A stretch of DNA of 64,000 bases from a virus: IMG/VR virus record IMGVR_UViG_3300036985_004624. One strand, given 5' to 3'. Of this stretch, positions 180-48,382 are shown one piece after another (within the stretch, counting starts at the first letter, position 1; each line of letters starts with the position of its first letter). The notes beneath the pieces are model-generated. The model did no database searches and had not been told where the DNA came from. It was given only the letters and a program-made list of their open reading frames with translations. The position numbers and the translations under genes are program-made.

Positions 180-1208
180 TTAATCTTTCTCTTTTAAAAG
201 ATGTCGATTAGAGATTACTTTGAATGATGCTTCACATTCATTGCACTTGAATACTAGCCCTTCTCTTTCGGGCCCGTTGATGTTTCCCATAACAGACTTA
301 CCTTCAGCCAATGTTAATAGGTCAGCAATAGTTTCCGTAGAGAACGACTTTTTAGAAGTAAATACAGGAACATGCCGCAATCCATACTTCGTAATAAAGG
401 CCTTTCTTTCAGCTGGAGTGAAATATCTGCCATTCTTAACATCATAAATATCAAAGATAAAGAATTCCTGATCTTTAAACATGTACGGATTACCTTGTAT
501 TCCGTTCCCTACTATTTCACCTTGCAATGCTAAATCGGGATTACCATCTTTTAGAATTTTTTCTAAATCATAACGAATTGCTACTTTCCATAGCGAGTTA
601 TTTTCGTCTCTCTTTAAATCCAAATTACGAGAACATACACCGAAATCTTCTTCGAGTAAATAGACAGTCATAGAACTGCCGTTTAGCTTTTCTGATTCTT
701 CCCAAGTGAATCCTGTTTCTTTCCAGAATTCAAATTCCTTAGGTAAATTTTGAATTCTTTCTTGATCAGTCTTTGGAATTCTAGACGGAAAGTTTCCGCG
801 AACAGTCCCTGCCAAGTTTGCAGCGATAGGTGCTTCGTATTTCTGAATATTAAGCGGTAAGGAAACATCTAAACCCTCGAATAACATAGATTCGATGTTA
901 GCACAAGTCGGCTCGAGCGGCATTAATAAACCCTGAGATAGCTGCTTTTTTAGCCGAATTGTGCGTAATTTTTCGCCCTTAACCCCGTTATACTCCCTAG
1001 GCTCTTTGCCTTTAGACAAAAACGGTGCTAATTCGATGGGAATCCAAGAATCCGGTTCTGCATATACTACTAGATCATCAATGGCATATTTTCCGACCGA
1101 ATCAACTACCCACCAACCGTCCACCCGATAGGCACAGATTAAATCTGCTTCGGGTATTGCTTTAATCTCAACAATTTTACGAATTGTTGCCATTTTTCTT
1201 TCTGTCAT
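180..1208 (-). CDS. ATP-dependent RNA ligase, DRB0094/Rnl5-like
   Basis: N-terminal OB-like RKMATIRKI..IPEAD, motif I EKLNGSS, LQGEIVG, EREGLVFK, SFKVISN. Confidence 0.9.
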   Translation of the reverse strand: MTERKMATIRKIVEIKAIPEADLICAYRVDGWWVVDSVGKYAIDDLVVYAEPDSWIPIELAPFLSKGKEPREYNGVKGEKLRTIRLKKQLSQGLLMPLEPTCANIESMLFEGLDVSLPLNIQKYEAPIAANLAGTVRGNFPSRIPKTDQERIQNLPKEFEFWKETGFTWEESEKLNGSSMTVYLLEEDFGVCSRNLDLKRDENNSLWKVAIRYDLEKILKDGNPDLALQGEIVGNGIQGNPYMFKDQEFFIFDIYDVKNGRYFTPAERKAFITKYGLRHVPVFTSKKSFSTETIADLLTLAEGKSVMGNINGPEREGLVFKCNECEASFKVISNRHLLKEKD

Positions 1209-1209
1209 A

Positions 1210-1665
1210 TCAATCCTTTACATATCTATCTTCTAACGGCCTATTTAAGTATTCTTCATCCTCTGGTCGATCCGGGTGCCATTTTGTTATTGGCTTAATC
1301 CAATCTGAAAATGCAAGTTTGAACATAATAGCACTATTCTCATTTTCAAAACTAAATCGATACCAAGTATTATGAATATCATATTTCTTTTCCCATTCAT
1401 AACTCTTCCCGTAATACTTCTTATAATCCATCTCGACACTATCGAAAATAACAGTGTCCGGTATTAAATTTTCTATCCAACGGCGAATTTCTAATTTGCG
1501 ACTTGCATATTGGAATTCATCTCTGTGCATACATAGTTGATGCGGAAAATTCTTACTAGGCCAGTCAAATCTATAACTACCTGCACCCGAATGTACCCAA
1601 TACGCATCATCAAAAAACCAAGTAGCATCTAAGCCTAAAGTATTAAGTGTAACTAATCTGCCCAT
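1210..1665 (-). CDS. hypothetical protein
   Basis: 151-aa ORF abutting ligase. Confidence 0.7.
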   Translation of the reverse strand: MGRLVTLNTLGLDATWFFDDAYWVHSGAGSYRFDWPSKNFPHQLCMHRDEFQYASRKLEIRRWIENLIPDTVIFDSVEMDYKKYYGKSYEWEKKYDIHNTWYRFSFENENSAIMFKLAFSDWIKPITKWHPDRPEDEEYLNRPLEDRYVKD

Positions 1666-1680
1666 TTGCTAGTATAAATG

Positions 1681-1709
1681 ACAAAACCGCTTATTGCAAG
1701 CGGTTTTGT
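1681..1709. terminator. intrinsic terminator
   Basis: ACAAAACCGCTT-ATTGC-AAGCGGTTTTGT hairpin after TAXI gene. Confidence 0.8.
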
Positions 1710-1723
1710 TTGGTTAAAGAAGT

Positions 1724-2668
1724 TTACTTCTTTTTAGCTGGCACTGCAACCTTAGTTACTGGCAATTCATAATAGGACCACTTGCCTGTATTATCTGGAT
1801 TCACTGCATTCCACTTTTTATGCATACCCGTAGTTTCTTGCAATTCGGCAACATTGGCCTTAAAGCATCCGCGGAGTGCGCCCAGCGACTGAACATACTT
1901 TTCTGTCTTATATGCACGAGTTACAAACAGGGATTCTGTTGCAATAGATTGCACACCTGAACCGCCTTGACCCATACTCGAATAGTTCAACTTAGCAGGA
2001 ACATACACGCTCTTCAACTTACCCATAGTTGCCTCAGGGAAGGAAAGCAATTTGTATGTATTATTGAGTGCCTTAACATCGTCCATCGGCTGGCCGCCGA
2101 CCATTACAATAGCTGCCACCTGACCTGCATCCAATGCTGCCTTAGCTGCTTTGAAATCAGCTACTTCGACTACCGTAAAACTAATTTCACTTTGCAGACG
2201 AATAACTTGCGCTGTAACAATACTACCGCCCCATGCTGCAACAGCACGGCCTTGGAGATCATTCACAGTATTAAATACTGCTGGCTTCTTGCCCATACCC
2301 AATGTACCACCTTCCAAGATGGCGCTTGTGGCAGAAGTAATCACATGCACTTCTTCAGGATACAATGCAAATAGTGTTTTAATGCCCCCCAAGTCTTCAT
2401 TTCGGGCACGATAAAACAGTACATCGGTTTGTACAATAGCTGCGTTCACTTCATTACCAAGCAACTTATCCATATTATCGACAGAACCCTTCGACGGTAC
2501 TTCGATCTGCATAATTTGATCTTTACATGCTTGCTGGAACTCAGTAAACATACGGTGATATGTGCCAGTTACTCCGCCTGTTGCTACTTTAAGTTGTGCT
2601 TGAGCCATTGCCCCTGCAGAAACCATAAGCATGGCGCTAATTGCAATAATCTTTGAAAATTTCTTCAT
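1724..2668 (-). CDS. TAXI-family TRAP transporter solute-binding protein
   Basis: Signal peptide, VATGGVTGTY, SKGSVDN, AIVQTDV, LYPEEVHVI. Confidence 0.85.
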   Translation of the reverse strand: MKKFSKIIAISAMLMVSAGAMAQAQLKVATGGVTGTYHRMFTEFQQACKDQIMQIEVPSKGSVDNMDKLLGNEVNAAIVQTDVLFYRARNEDLGGIKTLFALYPEEVHVITSATSAILEGGTLGMGKKPAVFNTVNDLQGRAVAAWGGSIVTAQVIRLQSEISFTVVEVADFKAAKAALDAGQVAAIVMVGGQPMDDVKALNNTYKLLSFPEATMGKLKSVYVPAKLNYSSMGQGGSGVQSIATESLFVTRAYKTEKYVQSLGALRGCFKANVAELQETTGMHKKWNAVNPDNTGKWSYYELPVTKVAVPAKKK

Positions 2669-2687
2669 TTGTGTGTCTTTCTTTAAG

Positions 2688-2852
2688 TTAGTTAATTTTC
2701 AGGTTTTTCAAATCTGCATCAGACGAACCTTGCGGTTGTGGCTGACTTTGCATTGTAGGACCTGCAGGGCTTTGATGATCGCCGCCCGTTAAAACAAACA
2801 ATGCTACCAGGATAACAAGTACCAATAATGATCCAAAAATTCGTGTCTTCAT
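2688..2852 (-). CDS. small membrane-anchored protein (54 aa, not in ORF track)
   Basis: MKTRIFGSLLVLVILVALFVLTGGDHQSP...KIN*, ATGA overlap with upstream stop. Confidence 0.7.
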   Translation of the reverse strand: MKTRIFGSLLVLVILVALFVLTGGDHQSPAGPTMQSQPQPQGSSDADLKNLKIN

Positions 2853-47587: not shown

Positions 47588-47661
47588 TGGTGGACCGCCG
47601 GGGAATCGAACCCCGATGCCTGACTTGCAAAACCAGTGTAATCCCATTATACTAGCAGCCC
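47588..47661 (-). tRNA. tRNA-Ala(TGC)
   Basis: CTGGT-TTTGCAA-GTCAG, G3-U70. Confidence 0.92.
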
Positions 47662-47667
47662 ATAATT

Positions 47668-47754
47668 TGGTGATGTACGTAGGATTCGAACCTACTCATC
47701 CTTGCGGAAACGGGGTTACAGCCCATCATACCTCTCCAACTGTATCGCTACACC
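47668..47754 (-). tRNA. tRNA-Tyr(GTA)
   Basis: ATGGG-CTGTAAC-CCCGT, V arm. Confidence 0.85.
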
Positions 47755-48040
47755 AAAAATGTTTTACACACTCTGCCACGGACTTTTCACTCCCATTTGG
47801 TTCCGAATGTGTATATTAAAACATACTAACACTCAATTATCTATTGCAGAGCATAATAATTCTACACCCTATGAGTTACGCATACTCTTCTAATATGTTT
47901 TAATATGGCGGATTTTTTTATCTACAAGAAGATAAGCCATCCCCGTCACCGCCCGTTTACCCCATGTTTTAAGTGCGGGGTCCGGTCCTCGTTACCGGAG
48001 TTCTTCACACTAACTATCATCACGCTTCACAGCGATCAAC

Positions 48041-48069
48041 AAAAAAGCCGCTTAGTTTCCTAGCGGCTT
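48041..48069 (-). terminator. intrinsic terminator (attenuator) upstream of tRNA array
   Basis: AAGCCGCTAG-GAAA-CTAAGCGGCTT-TTTT. Confidence 0.88.
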
Positions 48070-48097
48070 CCTTTTATAAATTTGCTGGTTACTTGTG

Positions 48098-48271
48098 TTA
48101 GTTTCCAGTATCCTTATAGAAGGAAGCCTTTGTAATGGGGTCTTGTTTATCATTATTTGGTGTTGATGTAAACTCGACCTGTCCCCAATAACTCGAGCCT
48201 GCACAGAGACGCGCGGAGGCTAAAGCCAGCGTATGCATCTCATTTTCGCGTTTCAAGTTAGTTACAAACAT
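48098..48271 (-). CDS. putative attenuator leader peptide (57 aa)
   Basis: MFVTNLKRENEMHTLALASARLCAGSSYWGQVEFTSTPNNDKQDPITKASFYKDTGN*, 3' end overlaps antiterminator arm. Confidence 0.7.
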   Translation of the reverse strand: MFVTNLKRENEMHTLALASARLCAGSSYWGQVEFTSTPNNDKQDPITKASFYKDTGN

Positions 48272-48353
48272 TTTTAATTCCAAAATTCCAGTTAAAGTTA
48301 ATATAAGCAAGCTTCTGCTTACATAAAGTTATTTATCATCTGCCTAAGTAATC

Positions 48354-48382
48354 AGTGTACTATACTGTTATTATTAAGTCAA
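48354..48382 (-). promoter_or_regulatory. sigma70 promoter for leader/tRNA array (ATAAATA motif also at ~48330)
   Basis: TTGACT-17-TACACT. Confidence 0.7.

What the first reader, a model, noticed from the sequence alone, without database searches (positions are those of the whole stretch)
180..48382. Window-scale translation rescue toolkit
Seen together: RNA ligase, Pth2, suppressor tRNA, tmRNA, RNase P RNA, about 38 tRNAs for all 20 amino acids, tRNA mimics and two translation-sensing leaders. Inference: a sense, decoy, replace, repair and rescue programme against host defences that shut down translation.
Basis: inference. Interest (0 to 1): 0.75.

Follow-up and report, generated by a model that had tools for sequence, protein, structure and literature searches.

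The report
Jumbo-phage tRNA supply and rescue genes
An uncultured giant phage carries about 37 tRNA genes together with a stripped-down RNase P-like RNA, a translation-sensing switch in front of the tRNA array, a two-piece tmRNA, a Pth2-like enzyme, a stop-codon suppressor tRNA and an RNA ligase; most of the listed parts are real and two are new, but they behave as separate modules and not as one proven anti-defence programme.

Summary
Seven of the eight listed part types are in the sequence. I located only one of the two "leaders".

- **Confirmed parts:**
  - An Rnl5-type RNA ligase.
  - A protein with the Pth2 fold, lying 40 nt upstream of an amber-suppressor tRNA.
  - A permuted tmRNA.
  - About 37 tRNAs. 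Asn is covered only by an atypical gene.
  - tRNA-like chimeras carrying the CAGCAA module of small hairpin RNAs that an earlier scan report links to a Ro-like gene.
- **RNase P RNA:** Rfam finds none in the window. However, 38422-38685 belongs to a conserved, covarying family of 200-350 nt phage RNAs. They keep the P1-P5, P15 and CR-I/CR-V core and lack the specificity domain. All 12 loci with the family hold tRNA genes, and the published 735-kb phage LR756501.1 has a copy.
- **Leader at 48.04-48.38 kb:** it has a conserved antiterminator/terminator pair. Its 49-60-codon ORF contains all 20 amino acids in all 11 distinct homologues, and tRNAs follow on the same strand in all 13 contigs with the terminator.
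- **Conservation:** the set is collinear in a complete 365-kb relative. Across unrelated huge phages, and even in the closest fragment, the parts come and go independently. About 35 unrelated genes lie between them.
- **Not shown:** "decoy" and "anti-defence" remain inference.

Other first-stage notes of this scan had already flagged the RNase P-like RNA, the leader, the tmRNA and the tRNA-like RNAs on this same DNA. One follow-up covers the neighbouring Ro-like gene.

The parts
180..1208 (-). Rnl5-family ATP-dependent RNA ligase with an N-terminal OB domain
   Evidence: PF09414 and PF21189. Full-length match to NgrRnl 5cot, E 3e-67. 63% identical and collinear in G001. Homologous loci hold about 20 times more tRNA genes per kb than chance loci.
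5924..5998 (-). tRNA-Thr(GGU), an outlying tRNA
   Evidence: ARAGORN and Rfam, 67 bits. Synteny kept in L001.
9172..9246 (-). Amber-suppressor tRNA(CUA) with encoded CCA and its own sigma70-like promoter (9286-9258)
   Evidence: TAG ends 7 of 71 window ORFs, so there is no genome-wide recoding.
9283..9609 (-). Pth2-fold protein (divergent peptidyl-tRNA hydrolase 2 family), directly upstream of the suppressor tRNA
   Evidence: Pfam 24.3 bits. AF2 model plus Foldseek hits to 2zv3, 1q7s, 1xty and 3erj. Adjacent to a tRNA-CUA in the window, L025 (whose anticodon ARAGORN reads as four bases, ctaa), G001 and L001, and in reversed order in the unrelated G009.
15892..16353 (-). Two-piece (permuted) tmRNA with a predicted 28-residue tag
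   Evidence: ARAGORN tmRNA*, RF04321 106.6 bits, RF01850 104 bits. Conserved in G001, G002, G004 and G005.
31018..31091 (-). tRNA-Lys(UUU), an outlying tRNA
   Evidence: Rfam 62 bits; relaxed ARAGORN.
34736..47754 (-). Main tRNA array: about 33 tRNA genes mixed with small RNAs and inserted ORFs (HNH, GIY-YIG, deaminase, response regulator, QueC-like)
38422..38685 (-). RNase P-like RNA with the catalytic-domain core only, between tRNA-Cys and tRNA-Leu(CAA)
   Evidence: CR-I and CR-V motifs form P4 with a bulged U. Family alignment A1: 33 pairs, 17 with compensatory changes, 92% paired against 74% in shuffles, 0/500. Three members give sub-threshold hits to Rfam RNase P families. Model R1 finds copies not used to build it in G001, G012 and LR756501.1.
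44155..45183 (-). vWA-domain protein (MIDAS motif DHSGS) with a beta-rich C-terminal domain; phrog_26613, function unknown
   Evidence: AF2 model and Foldseek vWA matches. phrog_26613 E 1e-101. All 15 homologous loci hold tRNA genes, at 0.92 tRNA per kb.
47149..47240 (-). tRNA-like RNA with acceptor (G3-U70, A73, CCA), D and T arms but a non-anticodon insert
   Evidence: Weak tmRNA and tRNA-Sec hits; sequence and fold.
45253..45368 (-). tRNA-like RNA whose anticodon arm is replaced by a CAGCAA hairpin module (YrlA-like architecture)
   Evidence: The inner module scores weakly against RF01414.
46876..47080 (-). Two of the four stand-alone CAGCAA stem-loop small RNAs (the others are 36718-36767 and 42148-42209)
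   Evidence: Weak RF01414 hits of 27-38 bits; shared stem plus CAGCAA motif.
48098..48271 (-). Leader ORF of 57 codons holding all 20 amino acids and 41 distinct codons
   Evidence: background mean 31.3 distinct codons, sd 2.8; 41 or more in 0.1% of windows. All 11 distinct homologues also hold all 20 amino acids.
48038..48128 (-). Antiterminator (ORF 3' end pairs with the 5' arm of the terminator) overlapping an intrinsic terminator, just ahead of the array
   Evidence: Antiterminator -25.9 against terminator -18 kcal/mol. Invariant across diverged relatives. Kept in 13/13 contigs, with 2 compensatory pairs. Same-strand tRNAs follow in 13/13.
47756..48037 (-). Conserved non-coding stretch between the terminator and the first tRNA
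   Evidence: 75-80% nucleotide identity to L044 and G001, more conserved than the leader ORF just upstream, whose product is 35-42% identical in the same two relatives. No Rfam family matched.

Best explanation
The window is the accessory arm of an uncultured jumbo phage; its complete collinear relative has 365 kb. The arm carries a largely self-sufficient tRNA supply and ribosome-maintenance gene set, built from separately evolving modules.

**Module 1: the tRNA array.**
- It holds about 33 tRNAs, which with outliers cover 19 amino acids firmly and Asn through an atypical gene.
- A leader-peptide attenuator gates it. The 57-codon leader uses every amino acid.
- The 3' end of the leader can pair with the 5' arm of the terminator. 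This antiterminator is the more stable fold.
- A ribosome that reaches the end of the leader melts the antiterminator, so the terminator forms and transcription stops. A ribosome stalled for lack of any charged tRNA leaves the antiterminator in place, so the array is transcribed.

**Module 2, inside the array: an RNase P-like RNA.**
- It is reduced to the catalytic domain.
- It probably matures the phage pre-tRNAs together with the host protein subunit.

**Module 3: quality control and sealing.**
- YrlA-like tRNA mimics, CAGCAA hairpin RNAs, a vWA protein, a nearby Ro-like protein and the Rnl5 ligase form an RNA quality-control and nick-sealing set. It resembles the bacterial rsr-yrlBA-rtcBA operon.

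**Module 4: ribosome rescue.**
- The Pth2-fold protein with the amber-suppressor tRNA, and the two-piece tmRNA, deal with stalled ribosomes and dropped peptidyl-tRNA.

**Shown here:** the identity, conservation and co-location of the parts.
**Inferred:** ribozyme activity, the attenuation mechanism, the functional links between modules, and whether the selective pressure is host tRNA-cleaving defence, host shut-off or codon supply.
For: - **Parts identified:**
- **All parts collinear in the complete relative G001 at about 60% protein identity:**
- **RNase P-like family:**
  - Covariation 0/500 shuffles.
  - Rfam RNase P-family hits in three members.
  - The helix map keeps P1-P5, P15 and CR-V and loses the S domain.
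  - 12/12 loci hold tRNAs, at 1.65 tRNA per kb against 0.01 in chance loci.
- **Attenuator:**
  - Alternative folds.
  - Invariant at synonymous sites while the rest of the ORF diverges.
  - 13/13 contigs keep it with same-strand tRNAs downstream, and 11/11 distinct leaders hold all 20 amino acids.
- **Rnl5 loci enriched for tRNA genes:** 16/29 against 4/105 chance loci, Fisher p 1e-9.
- **Pth2-like gene next to a tRNA-CUA in five genomes**, one of them unrelated.
- **Ro-like gene 3.4 kb past the ligase in L001:** phrog_850, E 9e-151.
Against: - No expression, processing or activity data.
- The RNase P-like RNA scores below every Rfam gathering threshold, and no RnpA gene is phage-encoded. Activity would depend on a host protein or on the RNA alone.
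- Attenuator helices are mostly invariant, so covariation is thin: 2 of 17 pairs. The all-20 property is shared by homologous, not independent, sequences.
- Modules are separated by about 35 unrelated genes.
- Across unrelated huge phages the modules assort independently.
- The RNase P-like RNA was not found in the eight other vWA-bearing records searched whole, nor in any of the 15 vWA loci, though most records are fragments.
- The loci used for the enrichment tests are phylogenetically related, so the p-values overstate independence.
Confidence: 0.55

Rival explanations
1. One reading: one coordinated programme (sense, decoy, replace, repair, rescue), selected specifically against host defences that cleave tRNA or shut down translation.
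For: - Phage tRNAs do neutralise PARIS, retron and other tRNase defences (PMC10264068, PMC11464382, PMC11555353).
- The leader would switch the array on exactly when tRNAs run out.
- The Rnl5 gene family co-locates with tRNA genes.
- All parts are retained together in G001.
Against: - Retention within one clade is what shared descent predicts.
- Unrelated huge phages carry different subsets.
- The closest fragment has an ORF where the RNase P-like RNA sits.
- The tRNA mimics look like Ro-binding Y RNAs, not nuclease decoys.
- AAA_33, the one end-healing kinase family I searched for, is absent from the Rnl5-bearing genomes G001 and G013.
- No host, defence system or expression data are at hand.
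Confidence: 0.2
2. Generic translational autonomy of huge phages. The genes compensate for codon-usage mismatch and for decay of host tRNA and mRNA caused by the phage's own host shut-off late in infection. There is no link to defence and no functional coupling between parts.
For: - Huge phages in general carry many tRNAs, tmRNA, SmpB and release factors (PMC7162821).
- PF09414 ligases occur in 6/6 huge genomes examined.
- tmRNA and SmpB are scattered among them.
- The window's neighbours are ordinary auxiliary metabolic genes.
Against: - It does not by itself explain a leader with all 20 amino acids gating the array.
- It does not explain the strict placement of the RNase P-like RNA inside arrays.
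- It does not explain the repeated Pth2/tRNA-CUA adjacency.
Confidence: 0.2
3. Much of the non-tRNA RNA content (RNase P-like RNA, tRNA-like chimeras, hairpins) is decaying or selfish debris in a recombination-prone tRNA hot spot and has no function.
For: - Homing endonuclease genes (HNH, GIY-YIG) sit in the array.
- The RNase P-like RNA carries variable inserts and is interrupted in L118 and L155.
- Its presence is patchy.
Against: - Compensatory changes keep P1, P4 and two inner helices across GC contents of 31-42% and unrelated genomes.
- The conserved core motifs are invariant.
Confidence: 0.05

Closest known systems
Translation gene sets of huge phages (Al-Shayeb et al. 2020, PMC7162821) and of Xanthomonas jumbo phage XacN1
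   Same: - Dozens of tRNAs plus tmRNA in genomes of 300 kb and more.
- Part of the window's tmRNA matches XacN1 and Xoo-sp13 by blastn.
- The 735-kb genome LR756501.1 of that study shares the Rnl5 ligase and the RNase P-like RNA.
   Different: - That paper's main text does not mention RNase P, RNA ligase, peptidyl-tRNA hydrolase or suppressor tRNAs.
- No leader attenuator or Y-like RNAs are described there.
- XacN1's tRNA number is from my own memory and was not checked.
Bacterial RNase P RNA type A (RF00010) and the S-domain-less type T RNase P RNA of Pyrobaculum (RF02357)
   Same: - P1, P2, a minimal P3, P4 with a bulged U, CR-I GAGGAA(G)UUC, CR-V ACAGAAUCnnGGCUA, and the P5/P15 region.
- The specificity domain is missing, as in type T (my knowledge).
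   Different: - Only 200-350 nt, and below all Rfam thresholds (22-43 bits against 84-100).
- Virus-encoded and embedded in tRNA arrays.
- A variable insert replaces the S domain; in G001 and L114 it is a tRNA-Ala-like element.
- Activity is untested.
Leader-peptide transcription attenuators (trp, his, leu operons)
   Same: A short translated leader, an intrinsic terminator, and a mutually exclusive upstream pairing whose formation depends on where the ribosome stands.
   Different: - The leader is not enriched in one amino acid but holds all twenty.
- It uses a three-segment, not a four-segment, design, so an untranslated leader reads through.
- It controls tRNA genes, not a biosynthetic operon.
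rsr-yrlBA-rtcBA RNA repair operon and YrlA Y RNAs (PMC7790460, PMC4201824)
   Same: A Ro-like protein, tRNA-mimicking RNAs in which a protein-binding module replaces the anticodon arm, and an RNA ligase close by.
   Different: - The ligase is Rnl5, not RtcB.
- The TROVE Pfam model does not hit, and no Rfam YrlA match was found.
- The RNAs are scattered through a tRNA array.
T4 Pnk/Rnl1 repair of PrrC-cut tRNA-Lys, and phage tRNAs against PARIS, retrons and other tRNases (PMC10264068, PMC11464382, PMC11555353)
   Same: A phage ligase and phage tRNAs that can restore a damaged tRNA pool.
   Different: - No AAA_33 kinase (the only end-healing family searched) in the complete relative.
- Rnl5 prefers nicked duplexes (my knowledge of NgrRnl).
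- No defence system or host is known here.

Membership tests
RNase P RNA (Rfam clan CL00002) | P4 helix formed by CR-I and CR-V, with a bulged U | tested here: met
   AGAGGAAGUUCGGGA pairs with UCCCGGCUA, giving 8 pairs. Two pairs covary (GGG/CCC, GCG/CGC, UCG/CGA, AGG/CCU) and none is broken in 10 sequences.
RNase P RNA (Rfam clan CL00002) | Score at or above an Rfam gathering threshold | tested here: not met
   No hit in the window, even on 371 nt. Relatives score 42.7, 35.6 and 22.6 bits against 100 or 84, with E 3e-10 to 8e-3.
RNase P RNA (Rfam clan CL00002) | Specificity domain (P7-P14) | tested here: not met
   In the alignment to RF00373, 89 model positions collapse to about 22 nt. A variable insert takes their place.
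RNase P RNA (Rfam clan CL00002) | Cleaves pre-tRNA 5' leaders | not testable with these tools
   Needs an in vitro assay. No RnpA gene in five complete genomes.
Two-piece (permuted) tmRNA | Rfam RF04321 over threshold, with a tag reading frame | tested here: met
   106.6 bits against 47; ARAGORN predicts a permuted tmRNA with a 28-residue tag.
Two-piece (permuted) tmRNA | SmpB partner | tested here: not met
   No SmpB gene in the complete relative G001, so the host protein would be needed. Most window ORFs were scanned against Pfam without a SmpB hit.
Peptidyl-tRNA hydrolase 2 (PF01981) | Pfam cut-off and Pth2 fold | tested here: met
   24.3 bits against 23. Foldseek probability 1.0 and TM 0.65-0.72 to MJ0051, Bit1, Sulfolobus Pth2 and AF2095. 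phmmer against the PDB found nothing.
Peptidyl-tRNA hydrolase 2 (PF01981) | Catalytic residues and hydrolase activity | not tested
   Q17, Q21, H24, A25 and E74-P75-D76 are invariant in six homologues. I did not map them onto the known active site.
Rnl5 RNA ligase (NgrRnl/DraRnl type) | Nucleotidyltransferase domain plus N-terminal OB domain, full-length similarity | tested here: met
   PF09414 and PF21189; residues 3-342 align to 5cot residues 4-339, E 3e-67.
YrlA-type Y RNA with Ro60 | Rfam YrlA match, or the TROVE domain in the partner protein | tested here: not met
   No Y RNA family among the Rfam hits at E<=10. PF05731 finds nothing in five relatives. The partner in L001 matches only phrog_850, "RNA-binding protein".
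YrlA-type Y RNA with Ro60 | tRNA-like body whose anticodon arm is replaced by a protein-binding stem | tested here: inconclusive
   Seen by eye and by folding in 45253-45368 and 47149-47240. Binding is untested.
Leader-peptide attenuator | Translated leader, terminator and a mutually exclusive antiterminator | tested here: met
   Translation of the leader is inferred from protein-level conservation.
Leader-peptide attenuator | Run of regulatory codons for one amino acid | tested here: not met
   Instead, all 20 amino acids are present in 11/11 distinct leaders.
T4-type tRNA break repair (Pnk plus ligase) | End-healing kinase/phosphatase encoded with the ligase | tested here: not met
   AAA_33 is absent from G001 and G013, which carry Rnl5, and present in G008, G009 and G010. 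Other healing families were not searched.

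The most novel reading that the evidence does not exclude
Huge phages run an autonomous, feedback-controlled tRNA factory.
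- A leader peptide that samples all twenty amino acids senses failing translation.
- That opens transcription of a tRNA array which carries its own minimal RNase P ribozyme.

This would be the first RNase P RNA known from a virus and a new kind of attenuator. Ro/Y-like RNAs, Rnl5, Pth2 and tmRNA would act as back-up.
Probability: 0.4. Interest if true: 0.85.

Novelty: new variant of a known kind. Interest (0 to 1): 0.7.

Why it matters
**What is already known.** Large phages are known to carry tRNAs and tmRNA, and phage tRNAs are now known to defeat tRNA-cleaving defences. How such arrays are switched on and processed is not known.

**What is new here.** Two parts of this set would be new kinds of element:
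- **A catalytic-domain-only RNase P-like RNA family.** It is confined to phage tRNA arrays and is present in the published 735-kb genome. The searchable literature does not mention it.
- **A conserved leader with all 20 amino acids.** Its structure predicts that the array is transcribed when translation stalls.

**Why it is testable.** Both elements are short, defined and testable in vitro or with reporters. Together they would show that a virus can sense and repair the translation capacity of its host.

The analysis also corrects the broad reading. The parts are modules that assort independently. "Decoy" and "anti-defence" are not yet supported.

Tried and rejected
- **Rfam on the window for RNase P.** The whole window, 14 kb and then 371 nt gave no RNase P hit. 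The claim was rescued only through relatives.
- **The window is not in GenBank phages.** Megablast of a 3.4-kb gene found nothing.
- **No whole genome is held for the window**.
- **RNase P-like RNA against the phage collection.** blastn of the window copy found nothing. The G008 copy hit only LR756501/LR756503. No cultured phage with this RNA was found.
- **A 14-mer scan of IMG/VR was mostly chance matches**. I filtered it by a second motif.
- **R1 against 44 ligase and vWA loci:** no hit.
- **TROVE Pfam in five relatives:** none.
- **RnpA:** none.
- **phmmer of the Pth2-like and vWA proteins against the PDB:** nothing useful.
- **NCBIfam on the four QueC-like PP-loop proteins, the deaminase and the radical-SAM genes:** only far sub-threshold hits, except the radical-SAM gene beside the tmRNA, which matches a generic twitch-domain radical SAM subfamily (186 bits against 170). 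No tRNA-modification role could be assigned.
- **Amino-acid identity of the suppressor tRNA:** not settled. The discriminator base varies between G and A among homologues.
- **TAG recoding:** rejected. TAG ends 7 of 71 ORFs and read-through extensions are short.
- **My first reading of the 57-codon ORF.** I took it for an ordinary small gene because it is conserved as protein. I revised this after the structural and composition tests.
- **The second "translation-sensing leader":** could not be located. A scan for short all-20 ORFs gave no other convincing candidate.
- **One alignment (A2) held a junk row** and was discarded.

Full report
**What the window is.**
- Almost every long ORF lies on the minus strand, and GC is about 37%.
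- Pfam shows tail-fibre-type genes at 55-63 kb. Sugar-nucleotide, glycosyltransferase and radical-SAM genes lie at 17-34 and 48-55 kb. A porin and a PstS-like phosphate-binding protein lie at 12.6-14.6 kb.
- No whole genome is held for the window, and GenBank phages hold no near match.
- IMG/VR holds relatives. The complete record G001 (364,576 bp, direct terminal repeats) is collinear with window 48.6 to 0.2 kb at roughly 50-75% protein identity.
- So this is the accessory arm of an uncultured jumbo phage.

**The listed parts.**
- *RNA ligase (180-1208).* It is an Rnl5 enzyme and aligns end to end with the Naegleria ligase structure 5cot (E 3e-67), including the N-terminal OB domain.
- *Pth2-like ORF (9283-9609).* It only just passes Pfam PTH2 (24.3 against 23 bits). 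An AlphaFold model built from six homologues (pLDDT 87) matches archaeal and human Pth2 structures with TM about 0.7.
- *Suppressor tRNA (9172-9246).* It lies 40 nt downstream of the Pth2-like ORF and has a CUA anticodon.
  - The pair (Pth2-like gene, then a tRNA-CUA 40-51 nt later) recurs in L025, G001 and L001. ARAGORN reads the L025 anticodon as four bases (ctaa).
  - It also recurs in reversed order in the unrelated 362-kb genome G009.
  - The tRNA has its own 11/12 sigma70-like promoter.
  - TAG still ends 7 of 71 ORFs and read-through tails are short, so the genome is not recoded.
- *tmRNA (15892-16353).* It is permuted: RF04321 106.6 bits, RF01850 104 bits, with an ARAGORN tag of 28 residues. 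It is conserved in four related records.
- *tRNA count.* Default ARAGORN gives 30. Relaxed settings and Rfam add Lys-UUU, His, Glu, Asp, a CAU tRNA and one odd gene. 46707-46783 reads as an atypical Asn-GUU.
  - Arg-UCU/CCU and Ile-UAU lie beyond the ligase in relatives. In this genome they probably lie just outside the window.

**The RNase P RNA claim.**
- Rfam gives nothing in the window at any setting.
- The sequence at 38422-38685 nevertheless holds AGAGGAAGUUCGGG and ACAGAAUCCCGGCUA. These can form P4 with a bulged U.
- A homologous 202-nt element in the related contig G007 hits RF00010 at 42.7 bits, E 2e-13.
- A motif scan of IMG/VR, filtered for both motifs, recovered a family of 196-346 nt.
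- In a ten-sequence alignment:
  - RNAalifold predicts 33 pairs, 17 of them with compensatory changes.
  - 92% of cells pair, against 74% in shuffles and 33-40% when partners are slid.
  - The covariation score is 0.45 against 0.13, reached by 0/500 shuffles.
- Three members independently hit RNase P-clan models with significant but sub-threshold scores.
- The alignment to the archaeal model keeps P1, P2, P3, CR-I, P5, P15 and CR-V. It collapses the specificity domain to about 22 nt.
- A covariance model (R1) finds copies that were not used to build it:
  - G001.
  - G012.
  - The published 735-kb phage LR756501.1, where the RNA lies about 100 nt downstream of an Rnl5 ligase gene.
- All 12 loci with the RNA hold tRNA genes (1.65 per kb, against 0.01 per kb in 105 chance-matched IMG/VR loci).
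- None of five complete genomes encodes RnpA.
- I found no paper describing a phage RNase P RNA. The huge-phage paper does not mention one.
- I therefore accept it as an RNase P RNA homologue reduced to the catalytic domain. Activity is untested.
- The RNA is patchy. Searches of eight other vWA-bearing records, and of all 15 vWA loci, found none. The closest fragment, L044, has an ORF at the syntenic spot.

**The tRNA mimics.**
- 47149-47240 has acceptor (G3-U70, A73, CCA), D and T arms, with a foreign insert in place of the anticodon arm.
- In 45253-45368 that insert is one of the CAGCAA hairpins. Four further copies of the hairpin stand alone in the array.
- An earlier follow-up of this scan found a Ro60-like gene with such RNAs just outside the window.
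- I checked this in a relative. L001 has a 478-residue phrog_850 "RNA-binding protein" 3.4 kb past the ligase. The TROVE Pfam model finds nothing, and no Rfam Y RNA family matches.
- The architecture is that of YrlA (PMC4201824). With a ligase nearby it recalls the rsr-yrlBA-rtcBA operon (PMC7790460).
- This fits RNA quality control better than "decoy".
- A vWA protein (44155-45183, phrog_26613) has tRNA genes in all 15 homologous loci.

**The leader.**
- I first took it for a small gene, because the peptide is conserved.
- *Alternative folds.* The ORF's 3' end (GGCUUCCUUCUAUAAG) is complementary to UUUAUAAAAGGAAGCC, the 5' arm of the terminator.
  - The antiterminator (-25.9 kcal/mol) beats the terminator (-18).
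  - It is the minimum-energy fold of the whole region.
- *Conservation.* These segments are invariant in relatives whose leader peptides are only 35-56% identical.
- *Distribution.* The exact terminator occurs in 13 IMG/VR contigs.
  - Same-strand tRNAs follow in all 13.
  - All 13 keep the antiterminator hairpin, with two compensatory pairs.
- *Composition.* The leader has 41 distinct codons; 57-codon windows of window ORFs average 31.3, sd 2.8, and reach 41 in 0.1%. It holds all 20 amino acids, as do 5.3% of those windows.
  - All 11 distinct homologous leaders of 49-60 codons also hold all 20 amino acids.
- *Reading.* Homology weakens the statistics and covariation is thin. Still, the design predicts termination when the ribosome reaches the end of the leader, and read-through when it stalls. 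I put about 60-65% on a real translation-sensing attenuator.
- The second leader named in the finding was not located.

**Is it one programme?**
- Within the clade every part is kept in order (G001), as common descent predicts.
- Six complete huge genomes compare as follows:

| Genome | tRNAs | tRNA-CUA | tmRNA | SmpB | RNase P-like RNA | Ligase (PF09414) | Pth2 |
|---|---|---|---|---|---|---|---|
| G001 | 45 | yes | permuted | no | yes | Rnl5 | two copies |
| G008 | 31 | yes | weak | yes | yes | distant | weak, not adjacent to the tRNA-CUA |
| G009 | 45 | yes | yes | yes | yes | distant | next to the suppressor |
| G010 | 25 | no | no | no | yes | present, with a kinase nearby | none |
| G013 | 24 | no | standard | no | no | Rnl5 | none |
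| LR756501.1 | not counted | not checked | none over threshold | not checked | yes | two | one |

- Selection bias is strong, because three genomes were chosen through the RNase P-like RNA and LR756501.1 was found through it. Even so, the parts clearly assort independently.
- Pairwise links are stronger:
  - RNase P-like RNA with tRNA arrays.
  - The leader with tRNA arrays.
  - The vWA gene with tRNA arrays.
  - The Pth2-like gene with the tRNA-CUA.
  - Rnl5 loci with tRNA genes: 16/29 against 4/105, Fisher p 1e-9, with non-independent loci.
- An AAA_33 end-healing kinase is missing from G001 and G013. A T4-style repair of cyclic-phosphate breaks is therefore not supported. From my own knowledge, Rnl5 could still seal 3'-OH/5'-P nicks.

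**Verdict.**
Its two boldest items, the RNase P RNA and the sensing leader, gain real support from comparative data.
- The reading as a single sense, decoy, replace, repair and rescue programme against host defence is only partly supported.
  - "Sense" and "replace" are plausible.
  - "Rescue" follows from what the tmRNA and Pth2 families are known to do.
  - "Decoy" is better read as Ro/Y-type quality control.
  - "Repair" lacks a healing enzyme.
  - Coordination is contradicted by independent assortment.
- Nothing here tells defence evasion apart from compensation for host shut-off or codon supply.
- No expression data could be obtained.

Noticed in passing
L177:1365-1711 (G001) and L114:338-683: In these two copies the variable region of the RNase P-like RNA holds a nested tRNA-Ala-like element (G3-U70 acceptor, T arm, CCACCA). 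It scores weakly as tmRNA (16.5 bits). It could be an inserted gene or a built-in substrate or mimic.
   Followed up: partly
L118 and L155 (same sequence): An RNase P-like RNA whose CR-I is followed by an insertion. The conserved 3' block reappears about 940 nt downstream of CR-I, so the RNA may be interrupted by an intron or a mobile ORF.
   Followed up: no
LR756501.1 about 181309-182565 (L259:6966-8222) and 688162-688437: In the published 735-kb phage the RNase P-like RNA lies about 100 nt downstream of an Rnl5 ligase gene. Its PTH2 match holds one in-frame TAG.
   Followed up: partly
window 6900-7508, 22456-23433, 23825-24760, 42397-43119: Four weak QueC-like or PP-loop ATPase paralogues, one of them inside the tRNA array. 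NCBIfam scores are far below cut-offs (one faintly resembles the TilS N-domain). Whether they modify tRNA or DNA is open.
   Followed up: partly
window 47756-48037: The non-coding stretch between the terminator and the first tRNA is 75-80% identical at nucleotide level to L044 and G001. That is more conserved than the leader ORF just upstream, whose product is 35-42% identical in the same two relatives. No Rfam family matches.
   Followed up: no
window 38162-38190 and 38077-38152: A perfect 12/12 sigma70 consensus promoter sits just upstream of a CCA-ended, G3-U70 RNA that has no anticodon arm.
   Followed up: no
G008:316379-317152; G008:303975-304382; G009:300863-301294: In G008 a P-loop (AAA_33) kinase gene abuts the Pth2-like gene. 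G008 and G009 encode SmpB, whereas the tmRNA-bearing G001 does not.
   Followed up: no
window 12643-14618: A Gram-negative porin and a PstS-like phosphate-binding protein are encoded side by side. They are absent from the collinear relative G001.
   Followed up: no
window 34800-35342 and 45828-46505: Endonuclease ORFs sit inside the tRNA array: a GIY-YIG type at 45828-46505, and at 34800-35342 an ORF that an earlier scan note calls HNH (Pfam gave only a weak zinc-finger hit). They fit the gain and loss of elements seen between relatives.
   Followed up: no
G001:43139-43525: The relative carries a second, canonical PTH2 gene (88 bits) that the window lacks at the syntenic position.
   Followed up: no
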